DNA from: Christensenellaceae bacterium
Lineage (GTDB): Bacteria > Bacillota > Clostridia > Christensenellales > CAG-138
DNA length: 64,000 bases
Reading direction: 5' to 3'
Assembly: GCA_963666935.1 (NCBI GenBank)
Contig: OY762936.1
Coordinates: 453,354 to 517,353, forward strand
The translations under genes and the position numbers were made by a program. Positions within the stretch are counted from its first letter, which is position 1. Each line of letters starts with the position of its first letter. This document shows positions 3,111-31,270 of the stretch, in pieces. The notes beneath the pieces are model-generated. The model did not search any database. It worked only from the letters and a program-made list of their open reading frames with translations, and was not told the DNA's origin.

Positions 3111-3118
3111 GAGGAATC

Positions 3119-3493: not shown

Positions 3494-3804
3494 ATGGGAA
3501 GATGGCTAGAAGAGGTGCAAAGAAATTCCGATCACAGCTTGACGGGGTTCGCTCCCTCAATATCGGATAATCTGAGCGCAGTAAATGCAGCGCCTGATTC
3601 ATTCAAGCCCTGACAAGGTGGATTTGTGCAATGCTGTATCTCTTTCCATGTGGGCGAAGTGAGAACTGAAAACGGTATCCCATACGAATGCATGTAGGCC
3701 CATACCAATCACGAGGGAAAATACCCTTGATTGCAAATGGCATAATATGAGAAAGGCCAAGTGGGGGGATCCATTTCCTCCATTTTCTATGAAAGGAAAA
3801 TAAT

Positions 3805-5358: not shown

Positions 5359-5359
5359 T

Positions 5360-6022: not shown

Positions 6023-6031
6023 GGAGGCTGC

Positions 6032-7783: not shown

Positions 7784-7790
7784 GGCGCGT

Positions 7791-11210: not shown

Positions 11211-11597
11211 TTATAGCGCCACTACCTCCGCAAGCTGTTTGAGCACATCGGATACCCGGTCCCATAGCTCCGCATAATCTTTTTGCAAAGCCGCGATTTC
11301 TAACGGGTACACGCTGTAGGTATTGGCATGGATTGCAACCTGATTCAAGTTAGCGGCACACCTGCGTTGCAGAGAAACAAGCTCCCGGACAGGTGCAAGA
11401 TCGACATTCAGGACGTATCCGTTCAAGGCCATCTTGCGAATGTAGGCACTCATGTTTTGTGTTCCCGCTTCCTCCATGCGGCGCTGGACAGTGTCATACT
11501 CGTCCTGGCTGACCCATACATAAACGGATGAAGTCAACACCTTTTCGGGAATTATCCGGTGCGCTGACTGCGGGGCGGCAATGGCTTTTAACCGCAA
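11211..11597 (-). CDS. mobilisation protein MobC-like (orphan relaxosome accessory protein)
   Basis: Matches the MobC family pattern: an SAYIRKMALNG segment and a LQRRCAANLNQVAIHAN NLNQ-type motif. No relaxase gene is adjacent. Confidence 0.45.
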   Translation of the reverse strand: MRLKAIAAPQSAHRIIPEKVLTSSVYVWVSQDEYDTVQRRMEEAGTQNMSAYIRKMALNGYVLNVDLAPVRELVSLQRRCAANLNQVAIHANTYSVYPLEIAALQKDYAELWDRVSDVLKQLAEVVAL

Positions 11598-12201
11598 GGT
11601 GGAAAAGAGTGGCGTGGTACGGCGGTTTTACCGTTGCAGCCGCTACGCCAACAGCGGGAGCAAATCTTGCTCCATGCACACCATCGACGCGGATACGCTG
11701 GAAAACATCATCTTAGCGGACATCCAGTATTACACTCAGACGGCAATCGGCGACGAAAAGAAACTGTACGACAGGCTTTTATCCTTCTCTGGCCAAGAGT
11801 GTAAAAATAAAAAAGCCGCGCAGGAAAAAGCTCTGCGCGACACGACAAACCGTATTTCGTTCATTCAGGACGCCAGCAAACGGCTGTTCGAGGAAAAAAT
11901 TACGGGCAACGTGCCGGACAGTCTGTTTAAGAATATGCTTTCCGACTATGAGCGCGAGATAAACGAGCCTGAGGAACAGTCTGACAACATCAGGCGGCAG
12001 CTTCAGGATCAGGAAAGCAGCGAGAGCAACGTTCAGAAATGGATGGAACTGATTAGGGAATGCGTTTCCATTGACAGGCTCGACCGGGCCACGGCGTTCC
12101 AGCTTATTGATAACGTGGCCGTGCATGAGCAGACGGATAAAGACGGTCATAAAAGCCAGAGCATTCAGGTTAAATACAATTTTGTGGGATGTTTAAGCTG
12201 A
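11581..12201 (+). pseudogene. C-terminal fragment of a large serine recombinase (zinc-ribbon plus coiled-coil region only; catalytic resolvase domain absent)
   Basis: RFYRCSRYANSGSKSCSMHTIDADTLENIIL resembles the recombinase zinc beta-ribbon, followed by a long coiled coil. There is no upstream in-frame resolvase domain. It overlaps the MobC ORF on the opposite strand. Confidence 0.45.
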
Positions 12202-12227: not shown

Positions 12228-12329
12228 CATTATGGGCCGCACCTTACGGCACGGCTCATAATGCAATGGCGGAGAACATGAGTATTTCATTATGAGCCGC
12301 AGGGGGCGCGGCTGAGCGGTCTATCATTT
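12228..12329. repeat. structured element D/E1: inverted repeat hairpin, degenerate tRNA-Ser 3' fragment (tggcggagaa) and conserved 42-bp motif attatgagccgcN6cgcggctgaRcggtYtatcattt
   Basis: Near-identical copy at 27920-27982. It lies 27 bp after the serine-recombinase fragment's stop codon. Confidence 0.5.
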
Positions 12330-13107
12330 ATCAATCCCAAGGTCTTAAAAATAACCATTTATCCTATCCCTATCCCCGATATTACCTGCTCCACAGGAGG
12401 GGCTTACATAGGCGAAATTATCCGAAAAAGACACCGGGAAGCTACAGAAAATCCGTCTATCTATCCATATCATCGTGACGGTCAGAAAGAAGGCCTCACT
12501 GTGCCACGAATGAGCAAAAAGCGGAAGCAGGAATAGGCCTTCTTTCTTAATCACCGCAACCGGATTACATACAACGACCTGTGCCGGAAATGCGTCCATG
12601 GCTGCAAGCAGAGTTTCCGGGCCGTGATTGTGGACTGCACGCGCTATATTTCCAAACGTGCAAAGATGCAGCAGATGTAACCCGCAGCATTAGCGAGTCG
12701 GAATCTGAAAACAGGAAATAGGTTCCCGGCCTTCTTTTTATCTGTCTGATAAAAGTCCTTGACAATTCGCTAAAACGCATGGCGTGATATTAAAAATCTA
12801 TCATGTTTAAGTTCACAGGCCTTTGGAAAAACGCTATTATGAATAGCGAATTATCCGAGCAAAGGCATGCAAAAAAAACAATTGAGAAGAAAGCTCTCGA
12901 ATACTTTTGGTTGGATAATTCCATAACACGAAACTGTGGCTGGTTTTACTGTGGCTATGGGGAAAGTGTAATCGTCCCCACCTGTCATCACGCATTCTGT
13001 CGTTCTGCGCTTCGTATACGCAAAGCTATTATCTGCGCATACCGTCACAATATAGCCCATAAACGCATAGCATATAACGGAAAACATGTTGAAGGAGACA
13101 ACCTGAT

Positions 13108-13653
13108 ATGTATGATAACAGACTGTACCTGCCTCAAACTGTCAGCGTACCAATGTCGCTGTACAAATCGAAGCAAGGTGAATATTTCGACGGCTATGCG
13201 GGAAAACTTCTTTTTACGGGCCCGGACATGAGCGCATGGGCGGGGCTTTTCAACCCGCCTGATTCACGGGTCAACCTGTTCATTAGCTCGTGGGCGGCCA
13301 CAAGTCTGTACAGCAATTTCCGCATTCAGGTATGGTTCAACCCGGTGCTGCCCGGCAGCCCTGACCTATCTGATAGAGTATCGACAACAAATTTCACGCT
13401 GAATCCACAGCCGAAGCCGAAGGTTCAGCTGCTGTATGCTTCCAACGTTAAAGGCAAACCCGAGGGTGGTATGGAGGCATTCTCATTTCGCGGAGGACCG
13501 CAGAACACGATATATGTGCAGGAAAACGGAAAGTTTATCTTCCCACCGGGCGGCTCATTCGCATTGGTTTTGGCGCACAAAGAGGAGCCTGATGCACGGG
13601 CAGAGGGGCGCATTGCCTTCGGTTGGTATGAGGAGCCGGTATGGAATTGTTGA
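13108..13653 (+). CDS. hypothetical protein
   Basis: RBS gaaggaga sits 8 nt upstream of the ATG. The ORF is 181 aa. I recognise no domain. Confidence 0.35.
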   Translation: MYDNRLYLPQTVSVPMSLYKSKQGEYFDGYAGKLLFTGPDMSAWAGLFNPPDSRVNLFISSWAATSLYSNFRIQVWFNPVLPGSPDLSDRVSTTNFTLNPQPKPKVQLLYASNVKGKPEGGMEAFSFRGGPQNTIYVQENGKFIFPPGGSFALVLAHKEEPDARAEGRIAFGWYEEPVWNC

Positions 13654-14122: not shown

Positions 14123-14902
14123 GTGTTGATTTACGAACAGGCAAGCAAAGTCATTTTCGCGAGCGACTTCATACCCAGGAACTCTTTAGTCCATGGCATA
14201 CCAGACAAAGCTTATTTGCGATTCAATCCGGCCAGTGTCTGCGCTCTCCCTCGTATAGAAAAGAAGAATATAAAGCCGTTGAATAAAGAACAAAGCGGAG
14301 CCTTCTTAAAGGCTATTAAAGGCTCTCGCTTCGAGACACTATTCACGCTTGACCTATTCACCGGTATGCGTGAAGGTGAAATACTGGGGCTTATGTGGGA
14401 ATGTGTTGATTTTACTAAAGGCACGATTTATATAAAGCAGCAGCTTCAGAGGGAACGCACGAAAAACGGTAAGTATTACTTTGCGCCTTTGAAAAACGAC
14501 AAGTCAAGAACCATTACTCCGGCTCCATGGATAATGAACCTTTTAAAAGAACATAAGAATAAACAAAAAAGCCACCGTCTTGCTGCAGGCGATACCTGGC
14601 AAGACAGCGGCTTAGTGTTCACAGATGAAATTGGCGGTCACTTTGCTATTCCCACGGTGTATAAGCACTTCAAGAACGCAGCGGCTGCAATTGGTTGCCC
14701 TTCAGCACGTTTTCATGACCTCCGGCATAGTTACACTGTCGCTGCAATCCGCTCTGGAGATGATATCAAGACAATTCAAGATAACCTCGGACATGCCACA
14801 GCTTCATTTACTTTAGACATTTACGGTCATGTTACTGATGAAATGAAAAAGGATAGCGCAGACCGCATGGAGGCATATATAAAGAGCGTAATAAACCGGT
14901 AA
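14123..14902 (+). pseudogene. tyrosine recombinase/phage integrase, N-terminally truncated (catalytic domain only)
   Basis: Catalytic-domain motifs are present: FHDLRHSYTVAAIRSG and LGHATASFTLDIYGHV, giving the R..H..R..Y tetrad region. The core-binding N-domain is missing. It is transcribed toward the adjacent tRNA-Ser fragments. Confidence 0.6.
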
Positions 14903-14966: not shown

Positions 14967-15500
14967 TGGCGGAGAAGGAGGGATTCGATTTCGGCCATCG
15001 GCAGGCCGAGCTTGCACTTCGTACTGCGCTCGTCGCGCCTGGCACGAAATCCCGGCCTCTAAAAACGCTTCACCGGAGCGTTTTCTTAACGTGGCTTCGA
15101 ATCCCACTCAACAACAGGCACAAAAAAAAACCCGTCTTAAAAACGGGCTCTTCTTTGTGGCGGAGAAGGAGGGATTCGAACCCGCATACAGCCATATTTA
15201 TGCGTATTTTTGCGTTATTTACCGTATGGATATTTGGCTAAAAACAGGCTTTTTTTACTTCGCCCGTGTCATTCAATACAACTGATTGATAAGGGGTAAG
15301 GGGTAAAATAAGGGGTAGAAAATGCGCCCTTCAACTAAACTTTTCTGAAGTAGTTTATCTCCCTATTCTTAATTCTTCGTCTGGCCTAATAGCTTCTTGG
15401 TGCAATCTTCTTTGCTTCGTCTATGCTTCAGATTACTTTAGTTCATGCTTTGTTCAATTTAATACTTACTTCCATAGCAGCCCTTTCTATGATGGGAACT
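14967..15500. repeat. 535-bp direct repeat R1 (copy 2 at 21791-22325), containing two tRNA-Ser 3'-end fragments
   Basis: Nearly identical to 21791-22325, with a few substitutions near the ends. Contains tggcggagaaggagggattcga at 14967-14988 and tggcggagaaggagggattcgaaccc at 15158-15183. Also contains a minus-strand terminator (cccgtttttaagacggg plus T9) and a triple aagggg-ta repeat at 15281-15311. ORFs predicted inside are translation artefacts. Confidence 0.8.
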
Positions 15501-15605: not shown

Positions 15606-17105
15606 TTAAGAAAACACAAATCCGCGCTCTCGAAATAACTTTATACAAGCATCAACCACTTTACCGTCATATTTTACCCCTCGGTGCATAGCAATCTCAT
15701 TGATTGCTGCATCAATACCCAAAGCTGGCCGGTACGGGCGATGTGACATCATTGCTTCAACAACATCTGCGACAGCCAATATCCTACTTTCAGTAATTAT
15801 TTGGTCTGCTTTCAGTTTCTGAGGATAGCCGCTACCATCCAGTCTCTCATGATGCTGATAAATCATCTCGATAATCTGCTGAGGAAAGTCAATTTCTTTG
15901 ACTATTTCATAGCTATATTCAACGTGACCCTGCAATATTTGATATTCCAGGTTGGATATTTTGCCAGGCTTGTTGAGAATGTCAGAAGGGATGTGAACTT
16001 TACCAATATCATGAATAAGCGCGCCAATCGATATATTATATATGACATCATCCGGTAGTTTCATTTCTTTGGCAATCGCACAAGACAATAACGCTACTCT
16101 CTTTTGATGTCCTGCAGTATATGCATCCTTCAGCTCTCCAATTTTTGATATTGTATTGATTGTTTGCTGCAACCTAAGAAGAAGTTTTTCATTTTTCCTC
16201 GCAAGTTCCTCTGACAGCACATGCAGGTTTTGACTTAACTGTGCAAGATTTTCCGCTGCAAGTTTGCGTTCCGAGATATCAATGCAAAAGGCAAGAATGC
16301 AGTTGTCATCAATTTTTGTACCAAAAAGGTCTATCCAATAATCTTTACTATCTTTTTTTCTAACTAAATATTCTGCAGATAAAATTCCTTTGTCTATAAG
16401 TTCATGAAAATCTGCAAGCCCTTTTTCAATTTGATCAGTTGCAAGGAAATCAGCCACAGATAGGCCTAATACCTCTTTCTTTGTACGCCCCATCATCCGG
16501 CATCCCATTTCATTTACATCAATATATCGGCCTAGAGCGTTAGTCACAAAAACTCCGATTGGGGCCTTTTTGATGTAAGATTTGAAGATATCTTCACTTC
16601 TTCTTAACTTGATTTCAAGCTTTTTCCGTTCGCTAATCTCTTGTTTCAGTTCGCTTGTGCGGTGTTCCACCAACAATTCAAGCTGATCTTTTCGATTGCT
16701 GACAAGTATGTTTCTCTCTTTGATTTTTGCCATTGCAATTAATTGTGTTATTAATACCATGTCATCTATTGGTTTGAAAAGAAATGCCTCTGCTCCTGCT
16801 TCAAAAGCTTTTAGCCGGAGTTGCTGGTCGTCTTCTAAGTCAGTAATAAATAACATTGGAGTAAACTGTAGGCTTTGCTCTTTCTTTAAAATCTGACTTA
16901 TTTTCAAACCATCAGCTTTACTCATAGATATATCAAGCAAAATAACATCAGGGTCATGGTCTTTTGCATATTTTATGCATTGTAATATTTTTGAGGTAAT
17001 GTCAATTTTTGCTCCAGGAAGCGCTTTGGAAATAGTTTCCGCCAAACTTTTTGAATTAGTTATACTATCGCCTAGAATTATAATTTTTAGGTTTCTTTCC
17101 TCCAT
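15606..17105 (-). CDS. response regulator with REC, PAS and HD-GYP (c-di-GMP phosphodiesterase) domains
   Basis: REC motif DVILLDISMSKADGLKI is present. The HD-GYP signature HDIGK ... HHERLDGSGYP is present. RBS ggaggaaagaaat precedes the ATG at 17105. Confidence 0.7.
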   Translation of the reverse strand: MEERNLKIIILGDSITNSKSLAETISKALPGAKIDITSKILQCIKYAKDHDPDVILLDISMSKADGLKISQILKKEQSLQFTPMLFITDLEDDQQLRLKAFEAGAEAFLFKPIDDMVLITQLIAMAKIKERNILVSNRKDQLELLVEHRTSELKQEISERKKLEIKLRRSEDIFKSYIKKAPIGVFVTNALGRYIDVNEMGCRMMGRTKKEVLGLSVADFLATDQIEKGLADFHELIDKGILSAEYLVRKKDSKDYWIDLFGTKIDDNCILAFCIDISERKLAAENLAQLSQNLHVLSEELARKNEKLLLRLQQTINTISKIGELKDAYTAGHQKRVALLSCAIAKEMKLPDDVIYNISIGALIHDIGKVHIPSDILNKPGKISNLEYQILQGHVEYSYEIVKEIDFPQQIIEMIYQHHERLDGSGYPQKLKADQIITESRILAVADVVEAMMSHRPYRPALGIDAAINEIAMHRGVKYDGKVVDACIKLFRERGFVFS

Positions 17106-17195
17106 ATTTCTTTCCTCCAATAATATTTTCCATACCAAGGTGTTGCAAATATAACTTATCACGTTAATCCCACCATAAACATTTGAAAAATCACC

Positions 17196-18706: not shown

Positions 18707-21079
18707 TCAGGTTAGTGAAGTGTCAGCCTGTTCCCGCAACAAATCGGCAAACTGTTCCGGCACAATAGGTCTGCTAAAGTGGAACCCCTGCATCTCGTCA
18801 CAGGACTGATCCTTTAGGTAGTTCATTTGTTCTATTGTTTCGACACCTTCGGCCACAACTGTTAAACCTAAGGTTTCACCCATGGCAATGATAGCATGGG
18901 TAATCGCCTTGTCTTCAGCGTTTTCCGGGACATTACGGATAAATGAACGGTCAATCTTTAGCGTATCAATGGGGAAATGCTTGAGCTGGGCAAGAGATGA
19001 GTATCCTGTACCAAAATCATCAATGGCCAGTCGCACTCCTATACTTTTAATTCTAACTAACACATCCATCATTTTCGTAGGGTTAGTCATTATCATGCTT
19101 TCGGTAATTTCCAATTCCAATAGATTTGGTGCCATACCGGAATCGTTTAGAGCGGCTTTTATATCATCTATCAGATTGTTATCTGCAAGTTGTCGTAATG
19201 ACAAATTTACCGCCATACAGACAGCTGGAAGCCCCTGCTTTTGCCATGCAACGTTTTGAGCGCATGCTGTCTTCAATACCCACTTACCAATTGACACTAT
19301 CATTCCTGTTTCTTCAGCCACTGGGATGAATTGCGTGGGAGTCACTGAACCAAGGTGTGGATTTTGCCAGCGAAGGAGTGCTTCCACGCCGGTTATGATG
19401 CCTGTTTTGAAATTCACTTTTGCTTGATAATGTAAAGAAAGCTCATTTCGTTCAAGCGCAAGCCGTAGATTTGTCTCAATAGCCAAACGTCCTGCTGATT
19501 GCAACTGAATATCTTCGGAGTAAAATTGAAAGTTGTTTTTGCCTTCTTCTTTGGCATAATACATAGCCATATCCGCATGTTTCATCAGTAGTTGTTCGTC
19601 TTCGCCATCCTGAGGGTATATGCTTATGCCAATGCTGGCAGTTACTCGGCATTCGTCACCCAGCAGAACTATTGGTTTATAAGTGCTGGCAAGAATATTA
19701 TTAGCTACAAGTTCTAAATCACTCAACTTGTTAAAGTCCTCAATCAAAATAATAAATTCATCTCCACCCTGACGGCTGACAACATCCTCTGCGCGTAGTG
19801 TTTGCTTATATCGCATGGCAATCTCTTGCAGCAGTTGATCTCCTGCCTCGTGACCCTTAGTGTCGTTGATTATCTTGAAACGGTCAAGGTCAATGAAGAA
19901 AACTGCTAATTTCCGTTTGTGACGTTTCGCAGTCTGGATCGAATGGTTAAGAATTTGGGAAAGCATCAATCGGTTGGGCAACCCCGTCAGGCTATCATGT
20001 GTGGCGAGATATTGAATCTTTCCCTCGGCGATTTTATATTCGGTAACATCTTTGGATGCGAGGACAAATCCTATCCGGGTATTATAATTATCGCTGCATT
20101 CGGAAATTGATAGAATTATTGGAATATTCACACCTGCGCTAGAAACCATGAACGTTTCCACATTCCGTATAGGACATGAGTTCAGCAATTCGGAAATGCT
20201 TGTATTGGTTGATTCGCCATCCGAGAGGAAGAGTCTTCCCAGCGGTTCTCCACCCAATTCCTTTTGGGTGTATCCCAGCAGCCTTTGCGTTTCCGGATTA
20301 ATACTTAATATGATTCCTTTTTGATCTGTAAGAATTACAGAATCGATGATTGTCTGAAATAAATTCTCTGCAATTAAAGATGGTGACAGTGTCATTAATT
20401 TATATTTTATAATAGCATATAAAATTCCCAGTTGCCAGATCATCATTCCTGCTGCAATCATATCCGGGATTTCGGCTTTGATGATTATATTTGCACACAC
20501 ATTATACCCCATGGTAAACAAAAAGGAAGTTGCGCCCGAAAAAAATATTATTTTAGTCTGTTTTCGTTCCCTTGTTGAGGTAGCTCTTCTTAGCACAGAA
20601 TAACATAAGTACATGTTTATTGTCCCTAAGATTCCTATGAAAATCATTAAAATCCAATACCATGCTGACGCTGCATTAGCAACTAATCTCCATCCGTATT
20701 GATTATAAATCACATCACTAAAGTATAAATTTTGTTTTATTGCCTGAAATATAAAAATAATTGCGGGCAAATAAAGCACAATGTAAATCCACCATTTTTT
20801 TAAAATGTTATCCTTTTTCGTATATACAAGAAGAAAGTGAAGAGCAAGGCTCGAAAATGTGCAAAATCCAATAGACGCTATCGTATTCCAAATGATACAA
20901 CTGGCTTTATCAGGCATGATTATTGAAACAGCGGTAGCAAACGACCATATAAAAAGACTTAGATTAAGCACAAAATACGTCCTGTTTAATGCTGCTTTTC
21001 TGTCCTTGAAGAGCATAACAACGCCCATAGTAAGATAAATAATACTAAATAAAAACAATAACTGTGAAAAAAAGTTCAT
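18707..21079 (-). CDS. membrane sensor diguanylate cyclase/phosphodiesterase (multi-TM N-domain, PAS, GGDEF, EAL)
   Basis: About 8 N-terminal TM helices. GGDEF motif RQGGDEFIIL is present. EAL motifs EALLRW and DDFGTGYSSL are present. RBS ggag sits 8 nt upstream of the ATG. Confidence 0.75.
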   Translation of the reverse strand: MNFFSQLLFLFSIIYLTMGVVMLFKDRKAALNRTYFVLNLSLFIWSFATAVSIIMPDKASCIIWNTIASIGFCTFSSLALHFLLVYTKKDNILKKWWIYIVLYLPAIIFIFQAIKQNLYFSDVIYNQYGWRLVANAASAWYWILMIFIGILGTINMYLCYSVLRRATSTRERKQTKIIFFSGATSFLFTMGYNVCANIIIKAEIPDMIAAGMMIWQLGILYAIIKYKLMTLSPSLIAENLFQTIIDSVILTDQKGIILSINPETQRLLGYTQKELGGEPLGRLFLSDGESTNTSISELLNSCPIRNVETFMVSSAGVNIPIILSISECSDNYNTRIGFVLASKDVTEYKIAEGKIQYLATHDSLTGLPNRLMLSQILNHSIQTAKRHKRKLAVFFIDLDRFKIINDTKGHEAGDQLLQEIAMRYKQTLRAEDVVSRQGGDEFIILIEDFNKLSDLELVANNILASTYKPIVLLGDECRVTASIGISIYPQDGEDEQLLMKHADMAMYYAKEEGKNNFQFYSEDIQLQSAGRLAIETNLRLALERNELSLHYQAKVNFKTGIITGVEALLRWQNPHLGSVTPTQFIPVAEETGMIVSIGKWVLKTACAQNVAWQKQGLPAVCMAVNLSLRQLADNNLIDDIKAALNDSGMAPNLLELEITESMIMTNPTKMMDVLVRIKSIGVRLAIDDFGTGYSSLAQLKHFPIDTLKIDRSFIRNVPENAEDKAITHAIIAMGETLGLTVVAEGVETIEQMNYLKDQSCDEMQGFHFSRPIVPEQFADLLREQADTSLT

Positions 21080-21790: not shown

Positions 21791-22325
21791 TGGCGGAGAA
21801 GGAGGGATTCGATTTCGGCCATCGGCAGGCCGAGCTTGCACTTCGTACTGCGCTCGTCGCGCCTGGCACGAAATCCCGGCCTCTAAAAACGCTTCACCGG
21901 AGCGTTTTCTTAACGTGGCTTCGAATCCCACTCAACAACAGGCACAAAAAAAAACCCGTCTTAAAAACGGGCTCTTCTTTGTGGCGGAGAAGGAGGGATT
22001 CGAACCCGCATACAGCCATATTTATGCGTATTTTTGCGTTATTTACCGTATGGATATTTGGCTAAAAACAGGCTTTTTTCACTTCGTCCGTGTCATTCAG
22101 TATAACTGATTGATAAGGGGTAAGGGGTAAAATAAGGGGTAGAAAATATGCCCCCCAACTAAACTTTTCTGAAGCAGTTTATCTCCCTATTTTTAATTCT
22201 TCGTCTGGCCTAATAACTTCTTGGTGCACTCTTCTTTGCTTCGTCTATGCTTCAGATTACTTTAGTTCATCCTTTGTTCAATTTAATATTTACTTTCAAA
22301 GCAGCTCACTGGTAATGGGAACTAA
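21791..22325. repeat. 535-bp direct repeat R2 (copy of 14967-15500), with tRNA-Ser 3' fragments at 21791-21812 and 21982-22007
   Basis: Nearly identical to R1. Copy offset is about 6824 bp. Confidence 0.8.
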
Positions 22326-24247: not shown

Positions 24248-24922
24248 TTATTTCTTTTCTTTATTAAAGCATAAGAACCAATCAAGGCAATATTTATTTT
24301 CATCTTGGTTTTCCATTCTCTCCTTGGCAACTCCACATGATCCAGGTGTTGGAATAATCGTATCATCTCCCGGCCTCCAGTTGGCTGGTGTGGCAACTGA
24401 ATCTTTATCGGCCTTTTGTAAAGCAAGTATTATTCTCTTGATTTCATCAAAATTACGCCCACAGGATGCCGGGTAGTATAGGATAGTTCGAATAACCGCC
24501 TTTGGGTCGATGACAAATACTGCACGCACTGCCTGAGTGGTAGACTGAGATTGGATCATTCCATATTTATTGGCTACTTCCATTTTGATATCTTCAATTA
24601 AAGGGAATTTCACTTCAACTTTCTCCAGGCCATTCCATTTTAACTCCTGTATCTTTCTGAGCCATGCTATGTGCGCATAAAGTGAGTCTACTGAAAGTCC
24701 GATAAGCTCTGTATTCAATGCTTTGAAGTCTTCTGCCATTGACGCAAAAGTCATAAATTCAGTGGTACAAACTGGTGTAAAATCGGCTGGGTGAGAAAAC
24801 AAGATCACCCATTTACCTTTGAAGTCATCAGGAAAATTGATTGCGCCTTGCGTTGTTACTGCTTTAAACGCTGGCGCCAAGTCCCCAATTAATGGCATTC
24901 TATTTACATTCATTTCTTCCAT
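24248..24922 (-). CDS. 1-Cys peroxiredoxin (Prx6-like, AhpC/TSA family)
   Basis: FTPVCTTE peroxidatic-Cys motif is present. RBS aaggagg sits 8 nt upstream of the ATG at 24922. Confidence 0.75.
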   Translation of the reverse strand: MEEMNVNRMPLIGDLAPAFKAVTTQGAINFPDDFKGKWVILFSHPADFTPVCTTEFMTFASMAEDFKALNTELIGLSVDSLYAHIAWLRKIQELKWNGLEKVEVKFPLIEDIKMEVANKYGMIQSQSTTQAVRAVFVIDPKAVIRTILYYPASCGRNFDEIKRIILALQKADKDSVATPANWRPGDDTIIPTPGSCGVAKERMENQDENKYCLDWFLCFNKEKK

Positions 24923-25042
24923 GATTATTACCTCCTTTAATTTTATAAAAAAATATGGTATTTGCCCAAAAGAGATACATACACCGTTTTCCATTGTTTT
25001 GTCATCTACTAGCATTGCTATTTTTATTAGGTATCCTCCTCC

Positions 25043-25429: not shown

Positions 25430-25726
25430 TCACTTATTAACCTCTGGCATATTTTCTAATTGTCTACTAACAATATCTAGCCTTTTTTGAAGTAACTCTT
25501 TTTGCTCTGTAAGAATCTCTTTGTCAGTTAACACAACAGTTTCTCCAGCAAAAGATCTTCCAAATCCTCGTAGGCATCCATAGCCCGCTCCCCGACCTAA
25601 TCCTCTGCCACTTACTCGACCAAATCCAGCGCCATATCCGCCTACATTAGCTCCATTGCAAACTCCTGAGACTCTTCCGCTCATTGCTCCACGACCCATT
25701 GGGCCTGTTCCATCTCTTCCTGGCAT
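25430..25726 (-). CDS. Gly/Arg-rich small protein (DUF5320-like) with C-terminal coiled coil
   Basis: N-terminal MPGRDGTGPMGRG followed by GRG/GYG repeats containing Cys. C-terminal helical KEILTEQKELLQKRLDIVSRQLENM. Confidence 0.45.
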   Translation of the reverse strand: MPGRDGTGPMGRGAMSGRVSGVCNGANVGGYGAGFGRVSGRGLGRGAGYGCLRGFGRSFAGETVVLTDKEILTEQKELLQKRLDIVSRQLENMPEVNK

Positions 25727-25749
25727 AGTATCTTTTCCTTTCGATTTGA

Positions 25750-25986
25750 TTATGTTCTAATCATTGTCGTACCGCATTTTGGGCACTTCATACTTGCACA
25801 AGGTTCCGCACGTAGATGTTTTACTTTTTCACCACAGTTTGGGCATTCACAATAACCTTCTGGACCTGCACTTGCAGGACCTCCCATTTTTCCTCTACCA
25901 GCTGCTGTTCCAGTTTGTCTGCCTATACCGGCACCTCTGCCTGCTCCAGCTGGGCCTGTTCCGTCTCTTCTTAACATATCTACCAC
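25750..25986 (-). CDS. Gly/Arg-rich small protein (DUF5320-like N-terminus) with C-terminal CxxC...CxxC zinc ribbon
   Basis: N-terminal MLRRDGTGPAGAGRGAGIGR. C-terminal CECPNCGEKVKH...CPKCGTTM. RBS aggaggtg precedes the ATG. Confidence 0.45.
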   Translation of the reverse strand: MVDMLRRDGTGPAGAGRGAGIGRQTGTAAGRGKMGGPASAGPEGYCECPNCGEKVKHLRAEPCASMKCPKCGTTMIRT

Positions 25987-26479: not shown

Positions 26480-27325
26480 TCAATTACTTTTCTTAAATAT
26501 TTTATGGGCTAGCTTTTCCCAGTAGTTCGGAGTCTTTCCTTCGAGAAGTTTTTTAATATCATCAATCATTCCAAGTGCTGCGGCTCTGCCTATGCCAATG
26601 CTTTCTTCCACTTTCGCAAATTCAGTTGGGCCGATTTTACTTGTATCTACCACAATTGTAATATCTGCATCGGTTTTCATTCCACGCATGGCCTCCCATT
26701 GCTGAAGCTCAAAAGAATATATCATAATATCAACGATGTTTTTAGGTGAAGAACGGAGCTCTCCACGGTAACCAACATCTACTGCTATCACAATATCTGC
26801 GCCCATACTGCGCGCTGCATCTACCGGTACCCTTACAAGCACTCCACCGTCTACATAAGTCTTGCCGTCAAATATTACGGGTTCGAACACTCCAGGAAGG
26901 GAGATACTAGCACGAACCGCATCTGTCGTTTTGCCTGAATCAAATATCTTAACCTTACCATCTTCCAAGCAGGCGGATATTGTGGCAAACGGTATTTTCA
27001 TTTCATCTATATTGCTATCGCCAGTCAATGCAGTGATAATGGTATCTATATTATTACCTTTTATAAGACCAATGCGCGGCAGAGTAACATCAATAAGTTT
27101 TCCGTATCCATTGCTGAAGGTATCGGACACAATGGTATGTATTTCTTCAGATGAAATGCCGCTTGCGAACATGCAGCCTATTACAGCGCCCATACTGCAT
27201 CCGGCAATAAAGTCTATAGGCACACCATGTTCTTCCAATACCTCCAACACACCTATATGAGTCAGTCCTCTGGCAGCACCTGCTCCAAGAGCCAATCCGA
27301 TTTTAACTTTCTTATTCATTTTCAT
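26480..27325 (-). CDS. patatin-like phospholipase
   Basis: GxGxxG oxyanion motif (LALGAGAARG), GxSxG nucleophile motif (GCSMGAVIG) and a downstream DGG Asp motif are present. Confidence 0.75.
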   Translation of the reverse strand: MKMNKKVKIGLALGAGAARGLTHIGVLEVLEEHGVPIDFIAGCSMGAVIGCMFASGISSEEIHTIVSDTFSNGYGKLIDVTLPRIGLIKGNNIDTIITALTGDSNIDEMKIPFATISACLEDGKVKIFDSGKTTDAVRASISLPGVFEPVIFDGKTYVDGGVLVRVPVDAARSMGADIVIAVDVGYRGELRSSPKNIVDIMIYSFELQQWEAMRGMKTDADITIVVDTSKIGPTEFAKVEESIGIGRAAALGMIDDIKKLLEGKTPNYWEKLAHKIFKKSN

Positions 27326-27919: not shown

Positions 27920-27982
27920 TGGTGGAGAAGGAGGGATTATCATTATGAGCCGCAAAGAGCGCGGCTGAACGGTTTATCATTT
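27920..27982. repeat. element C/E2: tRNA-Ser 3'-end fragment (tggtggagaaggagggatt) fused to conserved motif attatgagccgcaaagagcgcggctgaacggtttatcattt
   Basis: Copy of the arrangement at 12267-12329. The discriminator base differs (A vs G). Confidence 0.6.
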
Positions 27983-28294
27983 GCCAACCCCACGATCTGC
28001 ATTATTGCTGCCGAAAACGTCGCACGGTAAACAAGAACCGGGCGGCGTTTTTTTATGATAGTAACCCAACGCATAATAAGCATGATGTTATTGTGGTTGG
28101 CTGCATACGCCGGCACAATAGATACCGCGAATGTGGCCCTGCGCTCTACACAATCATGTTTGGATTTTCCTAATTACAAATGCGTGCAACAATAGTCGAC
28201 TACTGTTTACGGACATCTGTCAACCTGACAATAAAAGACTTTAATTTTGCTTAATGCCAGACTGCCCGAAAAGTGCTCCGGCCGTATTAACACA

Positions 28295-28305
28295 CCCCCC
28301 CCCCC
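28295..28305. repeat. homopolymeric C11 tract followed by an extended -10 (TGgTATAAAT) about 230 bp upstream of the FG-GAP/C11 gene pair
   Basis: cacaCCCCCCCCCCCgcaaag ... gagtaTGgTATAAATaa. Confidence 0.5.
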
Positions 28306-28575
28306 GCAAAGTACTGGGCAGGAGAGTATGGTATAAATAATAAGAATATTTACAATTGCCGCTGCAATCAATCGGCTGGCACCATCGAAAGTATAATGCT
28401 AAGTTCATGCAAATATTAATTCAATTAAATGAAATGTATGCATATTGAAAGTACAGGAATCCGCTATTGCTGAACATATACCAACTTTTTCGGGAAGCCA
28501 GTTGTATATGGATGTAACTGGAATGTAAAAGCCTGAATATTATAAAGGGTGTGAGTCTATTGAGGAGGGGAAATT

Positions 28576-29631
28576 ATGAATGCATCTTTTGCTCCGGCTG
28601 TGTTTTATGGCACCGATCGCGGTCCCTACGGAATCGTTGTTGCTGATTTCACCGGCACGGGCGTTATAGATTTGGCCACGGCATGTAACCAAAATGATAG
28701 TGTGGCGGTATTACTTGGGAATGGCAACGGTACATTTAAAACGATGGTGACGTACGCTGTTGGAAGCAATCCCACCGCTGTCACTGCGGCTGATTTTAAT
28801 GGGGACGGCAATATGGATTTGGCTGTAACAGATTCAAACGGCGGTGATATTGCGGTTCTTTTCGGTAACGGTGATGGTACTTTTGGATCTGCTCATGCCT
28901 TGTCGGCGACCTCGAACCCGCTCAGTATCGTATCGGCCGACTTTAGGAATAACGGCAATATGGATCTGGCCATAGTCGATGCGGGCGCCTCCGTAGTAGG
29001 CGTCCTGCTTGGCAACGGCAATGGTACTTTTGCGGCAATGACACTTTATCCAATAAGTGCTGTGGGCGTTGGAATCATAGCTGCTGATTTTAACGGCAAC
29101 GGCAAAATGGACTTGGCGGTAACCTGTGATGATGGGCAGGTTAGAATCTTGCTTGGAAACGGTAACGGCACGTTTATGGATGCAGTAGCTTACCCCGCGG
29201 GCAATGACGTTGTATATGCCACTGCCGCCGACTTTGACAACGATGGTAAAATGGATCTTGCCGTAACAAATATGAGTACCAATAAAGTTGCGATCCTGCT
29301 TGGGAATGGCGATGGTACTTTTCGAAGCCCAACATTTTTCGATGCCGGATTTTATCCATGCGGCATCGTGTCCGCAGATTTTAACGGAGAAGGTAAAATG
29401 GATCTGGCAGTAACAAATATAGGCGATAACCGTGTCGCAATTTTGCTTGGAAACGGCGACGGTACGTTCCAGAGCTGTCAATTTTATAATGCAAACGACT
29501 ATCCGGCCAATATTGTAACGGAAGACTTTAACAGGGACGGTAAAAAAGACTTGGCCGTGATTGGTTTCTATTCCAATAATGTCGGAGTATTCATCAACAC
29601 AACGCCGGTTCGCGGCCTGCCTTCTTTATAG
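28576..29631 (+). CDS. FG-GAP/VCBS repeat 7-bladed beta-propeller protein, no signal peptide (predicted cytoplasmic)
   Basis: Seven repeats of the pattern ADFNGDGxMDLAVT...LLGNGNGTF. RBS ggagg precedes the ATG. The N-terminus is not hydrophobic. Confidence 0.7.
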   Translation: MNASFAPAVFYGTDRGPYGIVVADFTGTGVIDLATACNQNDSVAVLLGNGNGTFKTMVTYAVGSNPTAVTAADFNGDGNMDLAVTDSNGGDIAVLFGNGDGTFGSAHALSATSNPLSIVSADFRNNGNMDLAIVDAGASVVGVLLGNGNGTFAAMTLYPISAVGVGIIAADFNGNGKMDLAVTCDDGQVRILLGNGNGTFMDAVAYPAGNDVVYATAADFDNDGKMDLAVTNMSTNKVAILLGNGDGTFRSPTFFDAGFYPCGIVSADFNGEGKMDLAVTNIGDNRVAILLGNGDGTFQSCQFYNANDYPANIVTEDFNRDGKKDLAVIGFYSNNVGVFINTTPVRGLPSL

Positions 29632-29724
29632 AGGAGGGCATTACTTAAAGTTATTTTAATCGTTCAGCCGGGTTTTATAGAATAACTTACTATCACTAAG
29701 GAGCGATTAAAAGGAGCGATTAAA

Positions 29725-30918
29725 TTGAGTATGCGGCAGAGAGCCGACTGGACGATTTTAATTTATGCTGACGGCAACAACGATCTCGAACCTGAAATGC
29801 AGCGGGTTTTGCATGATGCAGAAACGGTTGGATCAAATTTAAATGTGAACGTGGCGATACAAATTGGCAGAGCGGAATTTGAGCTTGTGAAGCTTATAAG
29901 GCCTGGCGCTAATTTGAAAGATGATCATAGTTGGAGCGGCGTCAGGCGCTATTTTGTTACCCAAGGCGATTCCGAATTGGTTGAAAGCCTGAATAAAGCC
30001 AATATGGCAGATCCCAGGCAGCTTTATCAGTTTGTTAAATGGGGTATTCTGTCTTATCCGGCGGAAAGATACATGCTGGTATTAAGCGGCCATAGTTATC
30101 ACTGCGTTGGCATGATAACCGATTACAGCGAGAATGCCCCCTGTATAATGGGACTTCCGGAAATGGTTAACGCCATCAATATGGCCGCAAACGAAACGGA
30201 CAAGAAAATCGATGTTCTCGTGATAGACGCTTGTTACTCCAATTCGTTAGAGCTCCTTTATGAATTTGGTATGGATGAAAATCATGCGGTTCAAAATGTC
30301 ATTACCTATATTGTTAACGGGCCGATAGAGGGGTTGCCCTATAATCACGTCATTAACTTGGTGCAGGCAAATTGTATTGAAGATACTGAGGTGCTAATCA
30401 AAAATCTCATACAAAATCTATCGCATAATTTAGTTTCCTTTAGAATAGACCATAAGGCGCTTCTGCAAATCAAGCAGTTATTTAGTGATAAATCTGCCGA
30501 GTGCATTTCAAAAAACGCGGGTGATGCCATGCTGGATCATCAAACACTGGTTATGGAACAAAGGCGTATCATTCAGTTCATATCCAGCCGGGCACTGCCT
30601 ATTTATATTTATTATTATAAACAAAGTGATAACAACCAATTAATTATGGTAAAAGGCGGTATCGGCAGTCGTTTCAAAATAGAGGAAAATTACTACCGGT
30701 TGGGATTTGCGCAGAATAATTGTTGGACCCGCTTGCTAAACGATAAACCGGTCGATTTCGATAAGGTAAATGCCATGCAAAAAGAAAGTATGCAGCCGCT
30801 GGAAATGAGTCCTCAGGAAGTATACGAGAGTATTGCTATCATTAAACCAGGTCTGGAGCAAGCACAAATCAGTGATATCTTAAATAGGCTTTATCAGCAT
30901 AAGAATTGGCTTTTATGA
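29725..30918 (+). CDS. clostripain-like cysteine peptidase (MEROPS C11, clan CD), no signal peptide
   Basis: WTILIYADGNNDLE N-terminal block is present. His (LSGHSYHC) and Cys (LVIDACYSNS) catalytic-dyad blocks are in C11 order. TTG start at 29725 or ATG at 29731. A tandem 13-mer aaggagcgattaa x2 precedes the start. Confidence 0.7.
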   Translation: MSMRQRADWTILIYADGNNDLEPEMQRVLHDAETVGSNLNVNVAIQIGRAEFELVKLIRPGANLKDDHSWSGVRRYFVTQGDSELVESLNKANMADPRQLYQFVKWGILSYPAERYMLVLSGHSYHCVGMITDYSENAPCIMGLPEMVNAINMAANETDKKIDVLVIDACYSNSLELLYEFGMDENHAVQNVITYIVNGPIEGLPYNHVINLVQANCIEDTEVLIKNLIQNLSHNLVSFRIDHKALLQIKQLFSDKSAECISKNAGDAMLDHQTLVMEQRRIIQFISSRALPIYIYYYKQSDNNQLIMVKGGIGSRFKIEENYYRLGFAQNNCWTRLLNDKPVDFDKVNAMQKESMQPLEMSPQEVYESIAIIKPGLEQAQISDILNRLYQHKNWLL

Positions 30919-31055
30919 TCAGCAGACGGTAACGGAGCTCATGAATAATCCCGGCCGCTAAAACGCTCTACCGTAGCGTTTTTTAACGCGGCTTTGAATC
31001 CCGCCATATAAATAAGTTGCCAAAACAAAGGGCACCCTATGGGTGCCCTTTGTTT

Positions 31056-31148
31056 TGGCGGAGAAGGAGGGATTCGAACCCTCGCGCCAGTTACCCCAGC
31101 CTACTCCCTTAGCAGGGGAGCCCCTTACAGCCACTTGGGTACTTCTCC
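31056..31148 (-). tRNA. tRNA-Ser (anticodon GCU)
   Basis: Reverse complement ggagaagtacccaagtggctgtaaggggctcccctGCTaagggag...gcgagggttcgaatccctccttctccgcca. It has a long variable arm and a 7-bp acceptor stem with G73 and encoded CCA. It is followed by hairpin terminator gggcaccctatgggtgccc. Confidence 0.85.
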
Positions 31149-31181: not shown

Positions 31182-31270
31182 TGGCGGAGAGAGAGGGATT
31201 CGAACCCCCGGTGCCTTGCGGCATCACTGGTTTTCAAGACCAGCTCCATAAACCACTCGGACATCTCTCC
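31182..31270 (-). tRNA. tRNA-Ser (anticodon UGA)
   Basis: Reverse complement ggagagatgtccgagtggtttatggagctggtctTGAaaaccag...ggggttcgaatccctctctctccgcca. Confidence 0.85.

What the first reader, a model, noticed from the sequence alone, without database searches (positions are those of the whole stretch)
28576..30918. Cytoplasmic FG-GAP beta-propeller plus clostripain-like (C11, clan CD) cysteine protease pair in the island abutting tRNA-Ser: candidate undescribed conflict/cell-death module
Two co-oriented genes separated by 93 bp. Both lack signal peptides, whereas characterised FG-GAP proteins and C11 peptidases are normally secreted. C11 belongs to clan CD with caspases and metacaspases. 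Pairing a repeat-propeller sensor with a clan-CD protease mirrors apoptosome-like and CHAT/metacaspase bacterial conflict systems. The pair sits in a low-GC island inserted directly at the tRNA-Ser 3' end, which is a typical defence-island location. A variable poly-C tract lies upstream. I know of no described defence system with this FG-GAP plus C11 architecture.
Basis: partly seen in the sequence, partly recalled or inferred. Interest (0 to 1): 0.78.

Follow-up and report, generated by a model that had tools for sequence, protein, structure and literature searches.

The report
Spore-surface cargo with dedicated C11 protease
The two genes are real and work together. They look less like a phage-defence module than an undescribed pairing: a clostripain-like protease encoded next to a client protein that carries a short C-terminal "P-x-R-G-I-x-F" tag, probably made late in sporulation to build the spore surface.

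Summary
Gene 28576-29631 encodes a 7-bladed FG-GAP propeller. Gene 29725-30918 encodes a C11 (clostripain-fold) cysteine peptidase with invariant His123, Asp168 and Cys170. Neither can carry a signal peptide. Both lie beside tRNA-Ser in a region full of tRNA-derived repeats.

The defence reading is not supported. There are no PADLOC, phage or plasmid hits, no conserved sensor and no defence neighbourhood.

Comparison of about 30 non-redundant loci showed something else. The gene next to this C11 subfamily encodes proteins of unrelated folds: FG-GAP, RCC1 or SBBP propellers, ice-binding-like beta-helices, DUF11 repeats and small Cys-rich proteins. All lack signal peptides. In 26 of 30 loci the neighbour ends in a short tail, P-x-R-G-[I/L/F]-x-[F/L]. 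One protein fuses the protease to a tail-bearing domain.

Arg at P1 matches the Arg-specific S1 pocket of C11 enzymes. Cargo genes are preceded by sigma-K-type promoters (15/26 versus 14/422 controls). All named hosts are Bacillota, several of them known endospore formers.

Best reading: a cargo plus dedicated tail-processing protease module, possibly a transpeptidase, expressed in the mother cell for the spore coat or exosporium. Cleavage and spore localisation are inferred, not shown.

The parts
27920..27938 (+). Degenerate copy of the tRNA-Ser 3' end (TGGTGGAGAAGGAGGGATT, 1 mismatch). It is the att-like distal boundary of the tRNA-proximal islet that holds the pair.
   Evidence: expected 0.01 chance matches
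28295..28305 (+). Poly-C(11) tract in non-coding DNA, outside the segment shared with relative L001. Role unknown.
28517..28544 (+). Sigma-K-type promoter candidate: -35 AC (28517-28518, within GTAACT), 17-nt spacer, -10 AATATTATA (28536-28544). It lies 31 nt upstream of the start codon.
   Evidence: Conserved in L001. The same pattern occurs upstream of 15/26 cargo genes versus 14/422 control upstream regions, Fisher p = 1e-13. Consensus taken from PMC3789822.
28576..29631 (+). Cargo gene: 351-aa seven-bladed FG-GAP/VCBS beta-propeller without a signal peptide.
29596..29628 (+). Codons for the disordered C-terminal tail N341-L351 (NTTPVR|GLPSL). The predicted scissile bond follows Arg346 (codon 29611-29613), before Gly347.
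   Evidence: pLDDT falls from 98 to 69 and 46 over the last 11 residues. Family-wide tail motif.
29632..29724 (+). 93-nt intergenic spacer with an RBS. No sigma-70 promoter or terminator was detected, so the pair is probably co-transcribed.
29725..30918 (+). C11 (clostripain-fold) cysteine peptidase without a signal peptide, 397 aa. His123 is at codon 30091-30093, Asp168 at 30226-30228 and Cys170 at 30232-30234.
30960..30984 (+). Terminator-like hairpin (AAAACGCU...AGCGUUUU) followed by a U run, downstream of the protease gene.
   Evidence: This is a sequence reading only; the folding energy is not exceptional.
31056..31148 (-). tRNA-Ser(GCT). Its 3' end abuts the islet.
31182..31270 (-). tRNA-Ser(TGA).

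Best explanation
The pair is a two-gene "cargo plus dedicated tail-processing protease" module.

The cargo is a signal-peptide-less seven-bladed FG-GAP propeller. It ends in a flexible tail carrying the family-wide motif P-x-R-G-hydrophobic-x-hydrophobic; here the tail is TPVR|GLPSL. The neighbour is a cytoplasmically made, Arg-specific clan-CD C11 cysteine peptidase. It recognises this tail and cleaves after the Arg. The outcome is either simple removal of the last 4-25 residues, or transfer of the new Arg carboxyl to an amine acceptor.

The cargo gene has a sigma-K-type promoter. The module is therefore most likely expressed in the mother cell late in sporulation, and the processed cargo becomes part of the spore coat or exosporium.

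Shown:
- the gene association;
- the shared tail on unrelated folds;
- the intact catalytic His/Cys and the S1 Asp;
- the absence of signal peptides;
- the promoter-motif enrichment;
- a natural protease-cargo fusion.

Inferred:
- cleavage at Arg-Gly;
- sporulation timing;
- spore-surface destination;
- any transpeptidation.
For: (1) Among 30 non-redundant loci with a full-length member of this C11 subfamily, 24 have a neighbour within 3.5 kb whose last residues contain RG[ILMFV]. Two more were added by hand, giving 26/30. At gene level the rate is 28/172 near the protease versus 1/64 farther away.

(2) The tail-bearing neighbours have unrelated folds. They include FG-GAP, RCC1 and DUF7948+SBBP propellers, Ice_binding alone or with 5 DUF11 repeats, DUF11 alone, and several Pfam-less small Cys-rich proteins.

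(3) Positions not used to select the tails are also conserved. P3 is Pro in 22/32, P2' is Ile in 24/32 and P4' is F/L/I in 29/32. Only 4-25 residues follow the Arg.

(4) The tail is disordered in the AF2 model.

(5) His123, Asp168 and Cys170 are invariant in 79 sequences. D-A-C aligns with the D-A-C of clostripain. C11 enzymes cleave strictly after Arg (PMC12445089).

(6) P0412, a real gene in an NCBI genome, fuses the protease to a roughly 180-aa domain ending in ...PPPPRGVIL.

(7) The pattern AC-N16/17-[C/A]ATAnnnTA is found upstream of 15/26 cargo genes versus 14/422 controls, p = 1e-13. Shuffled sequences give a mean of 1.0 and a maximum of 5. It matches the sigma-K consensus, and the sigma-K regulon comprises coat proteins, BclA and YabG (PMC3789822).

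(8) No cargo has a signal-peptide-like hydrophobic segment.

(9) All named hosts are Bacillota, including Caminicella sporogenes, Clostridium polyendosporum, Hathewaya histolytica, Pelosinus and Peptococcaceae. Neighbours include a spore germination permease, a GerM-like protein, spore photoproduct lyase and glycosyltransferases. One family member is fused to a GT4 glycosyltransferase.

(10) DUF11-repeat proteins are known components of spore appendages and exosporium anchors (PMC5749712, PMC12357932).
Against: - No biochemical or expression data exist for any member.
- The promoter is only a sequence match. In the window its -10 begins with A rather than C.
- The protease genes themselves rarely have the motif (4/42).
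- The window's host is an uncultured Clostridia bacterium. Its nearest named SerS relatives are "Clostridia" and "Christensenellaceae" MAGs at 84%, so its ability to sporulate is unknown. The window contains no sporulation gene.
- The window's tail (RGLPSL) is the shortest and least canonical, with Ser at P4'.
- Four of 30 loci show no tail-bearing neighbour, though one of those is a 3.6-kb contig.
- The tail could be a docking or inhibitory element rather than a cleavage site.
Confidence: 0.55

Rival explanations
1. The same cargo-protease relationship holds, with tail recognition and cleavage after Arg, but it is unrelated to sporulation. It would be a vegetative cytoplasmic maturation or quality-control system. 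Alternatively it could be part of a non-classical export route in which the tail acts as an export or assembly signal.
For: The tail-protease association and the fusion protein are independent of the sporulation inference. The host's sporulation status is unknown. The protease genes mostly lack the sigma-K-like motif. No conserved sporulation gene is linked.
Against: The sigma-K-type motif is enriched about 17-fold upstream of cargo genes. The family appears only in Bacillota lineages that include classic spore formers. The cargo types (DUF11 repeats, Cys-rich small proteins, glycosyltransferase linkage) resemble spore-surface proteins. No exporter gene is conserved nearby.
Confidence: 0.22
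2. The pair is an anti-phage or cell-death module in which the propeller senses an invader and releases the caspase-like C11 protease to kill the cell. A variant of this view has the RG tail acting as a pseudo-substrate that keeps the protease inactive.
For: The protease belongs to clan CD, like caspases and CHAT proteases. SAVED-CHAT and caspases appear among weak structural matches. Both proteins are cytoplasmic. The pair lies in a tRNA-linked region of integrated elements. In Caminicella the module borders a variable block holding type III CRISPR or RM genes. A tail lying in the active site could in principle be inhibitory.
Against: There is no PADLOC match and no phage, viral or plasmid copies. 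About 30 neighbourhoods show no recurrent defence genes. The "sensor" is replaced by unrelated folds with nothing in common but the tail. Promoters are sigma-K-type. The pair is shared with a relative on the conserved side of the island. In Caminicella the module stays while the defence block changes.
Confidence: 0.07
3. The two genes are ordinary neighbours. One would be a secreted digestive clostripain-like protease and the other a secreted adhesin-like FG-GAP protein, with start codons or export signals mis-called.
For: Characterised C11 peptidases and most FG-GAP proteins are secreted. The top FG-GAP sequence matches are long extracellular repeat proteins.
Against: No upstream in-frame start is possible for either ORF. 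The whole subfamily starts at the first beta-strand. The pairing is conserved across unrelated genomic contexts. The tail motif and the fusion protein show a specific link.
Confidence: 0.02

Closest known systems
Clostripain, PmC11 and thetapain (MEROPS family C11, clan CD)
   Same: Same fold (Foldseek E about 1e-14). Same His...(Asp-x-)Cys catalytic arrangement and same S1 Asp, hence Arg specificity.
   Different: All characterised members are secreted or periplasmic broad-acting endopeptidases, and most are activated by self-cleavage in the loop after the His. This subfamily has no signal peptide and no invariant basic residue between His123 and Cys170. It has a distinct helical C-terminal half that Pfam does not cover, shares only 10-16% identity with the full-length solved C11 structures in the fold alignment, and has a dedicated neighbouring client.
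YabG, the sporulation-specific clan-CD cysteine protease of Bacillus and Clostridioides
   Same: A signal-peptide-less clan-CD protease made in the mother cell under sigma-K. It processes spore coat proteins at specific sites (PMC12445089, PMC3789822).
   Different: It belongs to a different family: the window protein hits only PF03415. YabG has many substrates, cleaves internal sites, and is not encoded next to a tagged client.
Sortase/LPXTG, exosortase/PEP-CTERM and PorU/T9SS C-terminal domain systems
   Same: A short conserved C-terminal signal is shared by otherwise unrelated cargo proteins. A dedicated cysteine protease or transpeptidase accompanies them and is often encoded next to the cargo.
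   Different: Those cargos have N-terminal signal peptides. Their signals include a transmembrane helix or an 80-aa domain, and the enzymes act outside the cytoplasmic membrane. Here the tail has 4-25 residues after the cut, no TM segment and no signal peptide, and the enzyme is a C11.
Asparaginyl endopeptidase ligases (butelase-1, OaAEP1, VyPAL2; family C13, clan CD)
   Same: Clan-CD enzymes that recognise a P1 residue followed by a small residue and then a hydrophobic one (N|GL, N|HV). They release a short C-terminal tail while forming a new peptide bond. R|G-I/L has the same architecture. They also appear as weaker structural matches.
   Different: P1 is Asn or Asp rather than Arg. They are plant vacuolar enzymes. 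Ligase activity for the present family is speculation.
CHAT, metacaspase and caspase-like proteases of bacterial defence systems (e.g. SAVED-CHAT, Craspase)
   Same: Cytoplasmic clan-CD proteases genetically coupled to a partner protein.
   Different: Those partners are nucleotide or RNA sensors conserved across the family, and the systems sit in defence islands and match PADLOC models. None of this applies here.

Membership tests
MEROPS C11 / Pfam Peptidase_C11 (clostripain family) | HMM match above the curated threshold | tested here: met
   PF03415 at 46.2 bits against a cutoff of 25.8, covering residues 87-217 only. TIGR02806 clostripain equivalog scores 27.5 against a cutoff of 550, so it is not an ortholog of clostripain itself.
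MEROPS C11 / Pfam Peptidase_C11 (clostripain family) | Caspase-like alpha/beta fold closest to solved C11 structures | tested here: met
   AF2 pLDDT 91.3. Top hits are 9cip, 6mzo, 6n9j and 6nag at E 6e-15 to 9e-13, TM about 0.55.
MEROPS C11 / Pfam Peptidase_C11 (clostripain family) | Catalytic His-Gly ... Ala-Cys dyad and an Asp two residues before Cys (Arg-specific S1) | tested here: met
   H123, D168 and C170 are invariant in 79 sequences. The window has His-Ser and Asp-Ala-Cys; the family consensus is GHG ... D-T/A-C. The segment aligns with the FDAC of clostripain. The motif is taken from PMC12445089.
MEROPS C11 / Pfam Peptidase_C11 (clostripain family) | Secretion signal and zymogen self-cleavage at a basic residue after the catalytic His, as in characterised members | tested here: not met
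   No signal peptide is possible. No invariant Lys or Arg lies between H123 and C170 in alignment A1. Self-cleavage itself is not testable here.
FG-GAP/VCBS seven-bladed beta-propeller | Repeated FG-GAP units forming a closed 7-blade propeller with Asp-rich Ca-binding-type loops | tested here: met
   FG-GAP_3 at 4.5e-59. There are 7 direct DNA repeats of 147 nt. The AF2 model has 28 strands, consistent with 7 blades of 4, at pLDDT 96.9. DFNGDGxxD-type loops occur in each blade.
Known anti-phage defence systems (PADLOC-DB v2) | Match of either protein to a defence-system model | tested here: not met
   0 families for both proteins at E <= 0.1.
Known anti-phage defence systems (PADLOC-DB v2) | Recurrent location among defence or mobile genes; presence on phages or plasmids | tested here: not met
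   The neighbour census of 109 genes from 23 loci shows no dominant defence family. No viral, phage or plasmid relatives were found. Only Caminicella borders a variable CRISPR/RM block.
C-terminal sorting-signal systems (sortase, exosortase, PorU type) | Short conserved C-terminal motif shared by unrelated cargo proteins and co-occurring with one dedicated cysteine protease | tested here: met
   The P-x-R-G-I-x-F/L tail is present in 26/30 loci on at least 6 different folds. A fusion protein, P0412, was also found.
C-terminal sorting-signal systems (sortase, exosortase, PorU type) | Cargo has an N-terminal signal peptide, and the signal includes a TM helix with a basic cluster (or a T9SS CTD). 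The enzyme is homologous to sortase, exosortase or C25. | tested here: not met
   There are no signal peptides. Tails are 4-25 residues without a TM segment. The enzyme is a C11. It works like these systems but is not a member.
Sigma-K regulon / spore coat-exosporium proteins | Sigma-K-type promoter (-35 AC, 16-17 nt spacer, -10 CATAnnnTA) upstream of the gene | tested here: met
   In the window the motif lies at 28517-28544, with A in place of C at the first -10 base. Enrichment is 15/26 versus 14/422, p = 1e-13. This is a sequence match only.
Sigma-K regulon / spore coat-exosporium proteins | Sporulation-dependent expression and physical presence in the spore coat or exosporium | not testable with these tools
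   No expression or proteome data exist for any host. The host of the window is uncultured.
YabG (Peptidase_U57) sporulation protease | Sequence membership | tested here: not met
   The Pfam scan returns only PF03415 for the window protein.

The most novel reading that the evidence does not exclude
The C11-like enzyme may be an intracellular, Arg-specific "sortase-like" transpeptidase of the sporulating mother cell. It would cleave the P-x-R|G-I-x-F tail and covalently join the new Arg carboxyl of diverse beta-rich cargo proteins to an amine on the spore coat or exosporium, or to the next subunit to polymerise a fibre. That would be a new covalent assembly chemistry for spore surfaces and a ready-made Arg-directed protein ligase with a 7-residue tag.
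Probability: 0.2. Interest if true: 0.9.

Novelty: new variant of a known kind. Interest (0 to 1): 0.72.

Why it matters
Dedicated C-terminal-tag and protease systems (sortase, exosortase, PorU) have each opened a field and supplied tools. None is known that works inside the cytoplasm or mother cell, uses a C11 enzyme, or uses an Arg-Gly tag.

If the reading is right, it would:
- define a new recognisable class of spore-surface proteins in poorly studied Clostridia and Negativicutes, predictable from a 7-residue tail;
- give C11 peptidases a first non-secreted physiological role with a known substrate;
- explain how unrelated propellers, beta-helices and Ig-like repeats are recruited to one structure;
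- offer a candidate Arg-specific processing or ligation enzyme with a short tag for protein engineering.

It also cautions against reading "clan-CD protease plus repeat protein in a tRNA island" as defence.

Tried and rejected
- **FG-GAP homologue search.** It was swamped by longer repeat proteins and said nothing about orthologues or partners.
- **Single-sequence genome scan.** It gave only 5 loci. The alignment-based metagenome scan was needed.
- **Sigma-70 promoter scan.** It found nothing upstream of the cargo gene. Rfam found only the two tRNAs.
- **Search for a conserved third gene.** All-vs-all neighbour clustering and a Pfam census of 109 neighbours found none. The most frequent family was GT2 glycosyltransferase, at 4/109.
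- **Sigma-K-like motif upstream of the protease genes.** It occurs in 4/42, about 10% against a 3% background (14/422), so it is not claimed. Eyeballed sigma-E-type -10 boxes there were not tested statistically.
- **Upstream region of the fusion gene in L094.** It has a CATATCATA box, but the AC lies at a 14-nt spacing, so it was not counted.
- **Defence reading.** PADLOC, viral contigs, and phages and plasmids were all negative.
- **Secretion reading.** It is rejected from ORF boundaries and N-termini.
- **Literature searches.** Searches linking clostripain or C11 to spore coat, sorting signals, sporulation or sigK, and DUF3494 to spores, found no description of this system.
- **Resources not available.** The afdb50 fold library was unavailable. 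The window's own protease is not in the gene-position index, so the host contig beyond the window could not be read.
- **Another RG-containing C-terminus.** The response regulator at 15606-17162 ends in ...RERGFVFS. This was judged a chance match: it has no Pro at P3 and is unrelated to the module.
Full report
**1. What is in the window**

Two co-oriented ORFs lie at 28576-29631 (351 aa) and 29725-30918 (397 aa, TTG start behind an AAGGAG ribosome-binding site). They are 93 nt apart.

The first protein is an FG-GAP/VCBS repeat protein (Pfam FG-GAP_3, 4.5e-59). Its DNA holds seven 147-nt direct repeats. AlphaFold2 gives a seven-bladed propeller at pLDDT 96.9. Confidence collapses only over the last 11 residues, NTTPVRGLPSL.

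The second protein matches Peptidase_C11 above threshold, but only over residues 87-217. Its AF2 model (pLDDT 91.3, pTM 0.93) is closest to clostripain (9cip) and to the Bacteroidales C11 enzymes (6mzo, 6n9j, 6nag) at E about 1e-14. Legumain-type ligases, caspases and SAVED-CHAT follow far behind.

His123, Asp168 and Cys170 are invariant in 79 homologues. The D-A-C segment aligns with the D-A-C of clostripain. C11 enzymes cleave strictly after Arg (PMC12445089).

Both ORFs begin at the first start codon after an in-frame stop, and both N-termini run directly into the fold. About 100 full-length 50%-identity representatives of the protease subfamily all begin within roughly ten residues of profile position 1. 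The absence of signal peptides is therefore real and family-wide.

**2. The island**

tRNA-Ser(GCT) (31056-31148) and tRNA-Ser(TGA) (31182-31270) lie on the minus strand just right of the pair. GC is 0.41-0.45 over the pair and 0.54-0.60 further right.

The 19-nt 3' end of tRNA-Ser recurs at 14967, 15158, 21791, 21982 and, with one mismatch, at 27920. The chance expectation is 0.01 matches. These copies delimit tandem islets:
- one holds a tyrosine recombinase (14123-14902);
- one holds c-di-GMP signalling genes, flanked by 99%-identical 300-nt repeats;
- one holds a cation-efflux protein, a peroxiredoxin and a patatin-like protein;
- the tRNA-proximal one (27938-31056) holds the pair.

Further left lie prophage-like tail and lysis genes and a serine-recombinase fragment.

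A relative with a 92%-identical protease (L001) has the same pair next to the same tRNAs. It has no extra tRNA-derived repeats and an unrelated left flank, and synteny starts at window position 28434. The pair is thus older than the variable islets.

The 100 nt between the protease stop and the tRNA are 73% identical to the right ends of two other islets. Together with the low GC, this suggests the pair itself once arrived as islet cargo. None of this bears on function.

**3. The defence idea fails its tests**

Neither protein matches a PADLOC model. No relative is found in viral contigs, phage genomes or, apart from distant generic C11s, plasmids.

Gene neighbourhoods of homologues differ from genome to genome. 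They contain peptidoglycan hydrolases, a spore germination permease, a GerM-like protein, sugar-nucleotide enzymes, glycosyltransferases and metabolic genes. A Pfam census of 109 neighbours from 23 loci found no recurrent family. The most frequent was GT2, at 4/109.

Only in Caminicella does the module border a variable block. That block holds type III CRISPR in one strain and RM plus IS21 in another, and there the module stays constant while the block changes.

**4. What the comparison revealed**

The FG-GAP partner is found only with the closest protease relatives (at least 52% identity) and once, divergently transcribed, at 40%. Elsewhere the adjacent gene encodes:
- an RCC1 propeller;
- a DUF7948+SBBP propeller;
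- an ice-binding-like beta-helix, alone or followed by five DUF11 repeats;
- a single DUF11 domain;
- small Cys-rich proteins or Ig-like proteins without a Pfam match.

These proteins have one thing in common. A few residues before the stop codon they carry Arg-Gly followed by a hydrophobic residue. Examples:

| Locus | Tail |
|---|---|
| window | TPVR\|GLPSL |
| L002 | PAVR\|GISFFNMEAIT |
| L016 | ELQR\|GISLW |
| Pelosinus | IPQR\|GIPLW |
| Caminicella | TPIR\|GIAFK |
| L019 (RCC1) | VPTR\|GICFEATELAFYSLQK |
| Hathewaya | RPCR\|GIYVL |
| L013 | APER\|GIRFDF |
| L029 | PRYR\|GFDFF |

Of 30 non-redundant loci, 24 have such a neighbour within 3.5 kb by an automatic gene set. Two more were seen by hand, one truncated at a contig end and one masked by an ORF overlap. 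One of the four negatives is a 3.6-kb contig. At gene level the motif occurs in 28/172 genes near the protease and 1/64 farther away.

Positions that played no part in the selection are also conserved. P3 is Pro in 22/32, P2' is Ile in 24/32 and P4' is Phe, Leu or Ile in 29/32. Only 4-25 residues (median 6) follow the Arg.

None of the cargo proteins has a signal-peptide-like hydrophobic N-terminus.

One natural protein, P0412, is a real gene on a 2-Mb NCBI contig. It fuses the protease domain to a roughly 180-residue domain ending in ...PPPPRGVIL. Another, P0394, fuses the protease to a GT4 glycosyltransferase.

A conserved short C-terminal tag on unrelated proteins, always next to one cysteine protease whose S1 pocket fits the tag's invariant residue, is the signature of a dedicated processing or sorting system. 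The partner is a client, not a sensor.

**5. When and where it probably acts**

No sigma-70 promoter precedes the cargo gene. Aligning and inspecting the upstream regions showed a recurring GTAACA-like box, 16-17 nt of spacer, and (C/A)ATAnnnTA.

The pattern AC-N16/17-[C/A]ATAnnnTA occurs within 150 nt upstream of 15/26 cargo genes. It occurs in 14/422 other upstream regions from the same loci (Fisher p = 1e-13). The strict CATA form gives 7/26 versus 7/422. Shuffled sequences give a mean of 1.0 and never more than 5.

In the window it lies at 28517-28544, 31 nt before the start codon, inside the segment conserved with L001.

This is the sigma-K consensus: -35 AC and -10 CATATAAT-like. The -10 is shared with sigma-E, which has ATA at -35. 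It was mapped experimentally in C. difficile, where the sigma-K regulon comprises coat proteins, BclA exosporium glycoproteins and the clan-CD protease YabG (PMC3789822).

Coat and exosporium proteins are made in the mother-cell cytoplasm and need no signal peptide. That removes the anomaly which prompted the finding.

Three further points fit this reading:
- All named carriers are Bacillota, several of them classic spore formers: Caminicella sporogenes, Clostridium polyendosporum, C. muellerianum, Hathewaya histolytica, Pelosinus, Sedimentibacter, Peptococcaceae and Thermacetogeniaceae.
- DUF11-repeat proteins are documented parts of spore appendages and exosporium anchors (PMC5749712, PMC12357932).
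- Glycosyltransferase linkage recalls exosporium glycoproteins.

The protease genes themselves rarely carry the motif (4/42). In the window the 93-nt spacer has no terminator, so co-transcription is likely.

**6. Mechanism, with its status**

Shown: the association, the tag, the disordered tail, the intact active site, the absence of export signals, the fusion and the promoter-motif enrichment.

Inferred:
- the protease binds the tail with Arg346 in the S1 pocket formed by Asp168, and Cys170 attacks the Arg346-Gly347 bond;
- this happens in the mother cell late in sporulation;
- the trimmed propeller is incorporated into the coat or exosporium.

The strong conservation on the prime side (Gly, Ile, x, Phe/Leu) is unusual for a simple trimming protease. 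It recalls the N|GL and N|HV tails of clan-CD asparaginyl ligases and the LPXT|G of sortases. Clostripain is known, from my own recollection of the enzymology literature, to catalyse acyl transfer to amines efficiently. Transpeptidation onto a coat component or the next subunit is therefore a live possibility at about 0.2, but it is untested.

**7. Caveats**

- No member has been studied experimentally.
- The promoter is a pattern match. The window's -10 starts with A.
- The host is an uncultured Clostridia bacterium on a 2.44-Mb contig. Its SerS is 84% identical to "Clostridia" and "Christensenellaceae" MAG proteins. Its sporulation ability is unknown, and the window holds no sporulation gene.
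- The window's tail is the least canonical of the set.
- A vegetative or export-related role for the same cargo-protease pair remains possible (0.22). A pseudo-substrate or defence role is unlikely (0.07).

**8. Comparison with known systems and novelty**

By fold and active site the enzyme belongs to family C11. It fails the secretion and zymogen features of all characterised members and is not an orthologue of clostripain (TIGR02806 at 27.5 bits against a cutoff of 550).

It works like YabG, a mother-cell clan-CD coat protease, and like sortase, exosortase and PorU systems with their dedicated C-terminal tags. It is a member of none of these.

I found no paper or curated HMM describing a C11-linked C-terminal tag or a sporulation role for C11.

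I rate it a new variant of a known kind, namely dedicated tag-and-protease maturation systems. Interest is 0.72. It is unexpected for protease, sporulation and protein-sorting specialists, and it is directly testable with two purified proteins.

Noticed in passing
window 14967-14985, 15158-15176, 21791-21809, 21982-22000, 27920-27938 (and a degenerate copy at 12267-12345): Five extra copies of the tRNA-Ser 3'-end 19-mer (expected 0.01) partition about 19 kb left of the tRNAs into tandem islets. A tyrosine recombinase gene lies at 14123-14902. The close relative L001 has none of these copies. The arrangement looks like serial integration at, or next to, tRNA-Ser.
   Followed up: partly
window 14967-15266 and 21791-22090: Two 300-nt direct repeats, 99% identical, each contain two tRNA-end copies. 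They flank a 6.8-kb segment encoding c-di-GMP signalling proteins: a response regulator-PAS-HD_5 protein at 15606-17162 (-) and a 7TM-PAS-GGDEF-EAL protein at 18707-21079 (-). This may be a recently integrated, still excisable unit.
   Followed up: partly
window 30950-31056 versus 15048-15147 and 21872-21971: The spacer between the protease stop codon and the tRNA, including its terminator-like hairpin, is about 73% identical to the DNA just left of two of the tRNA-end repeats. The islet ends therefore carry a diverged copy of this junction. That hints the pair itself arrived on an element of the same family.
   Followed up: partly
window 1-8000 and 11581-12201: Prophage-like genes: a Gly_rich_2 protein, a Laminin_G_3 protein, and a 583-aa protein combining Peptidase_S8, two PG_binding_1 domains and NlpC/P60. 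A truncated large serine recombinase (Zn_ribbon_recom + DUF4368) is also present.
   Followed up: partly
window 13047-13074 (+) before the DUF6143 gene at 13108-13653; window 27578-27552 (-) about 225 nt before the patatin-like gene at 26480-27325 (-); 1-Cys peroxiredoxin at 24248-25015 (-): Further sigma-K-like promoter matches sit in front of other islet genes. Patatin-like lipases and peroxiredoxins are known coat enzymes in model spore formers (CotE in C. difficile per PMC3789822; CotR in B. subtilis from memory). The islets may carry several spore-surface genes.
   Followed up: no
window 28295-28305: This is the only homopolymeric C tract of at least 9 nt in the window (11 C). It lies in the 500 nt of non-coding DNA between the tRNA-end repeat and the start of synteny with L001. 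Whether it varies in length is unknown.
   Followed up: partly
P0394 (757 aa) and P0412 (615 aa; L094 6001-7848): Natural fusions of the protease subfamily exist. One is fused to a GT4-type glycosyltransferase. The other is fused to a domain without a Pfam match that ends in the PPPPRGVIL tail.
   Followed up: partly
L004 7483-7920, L038 8616-9116, L042 8597-9064: A family of small cargo proteins (145-166 aa, 6 Cys, no Pfam match above threshold) shares an N-terminal ...C-N-x-D/N-G-T-Q-T/I-W motif as well as the RG tail. It would merit its own family definition.
   Followed up: no
window 25430-25726 (-) and 25750-25986 (-): Two adjacent small Gly/Arg-rich ORFs share an N-terminal R-D-G-T-G-P motif and a 28-nt DNA repeat (25700-25727 and 25951-25978). 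Their function was not examined.
   Followed up: no
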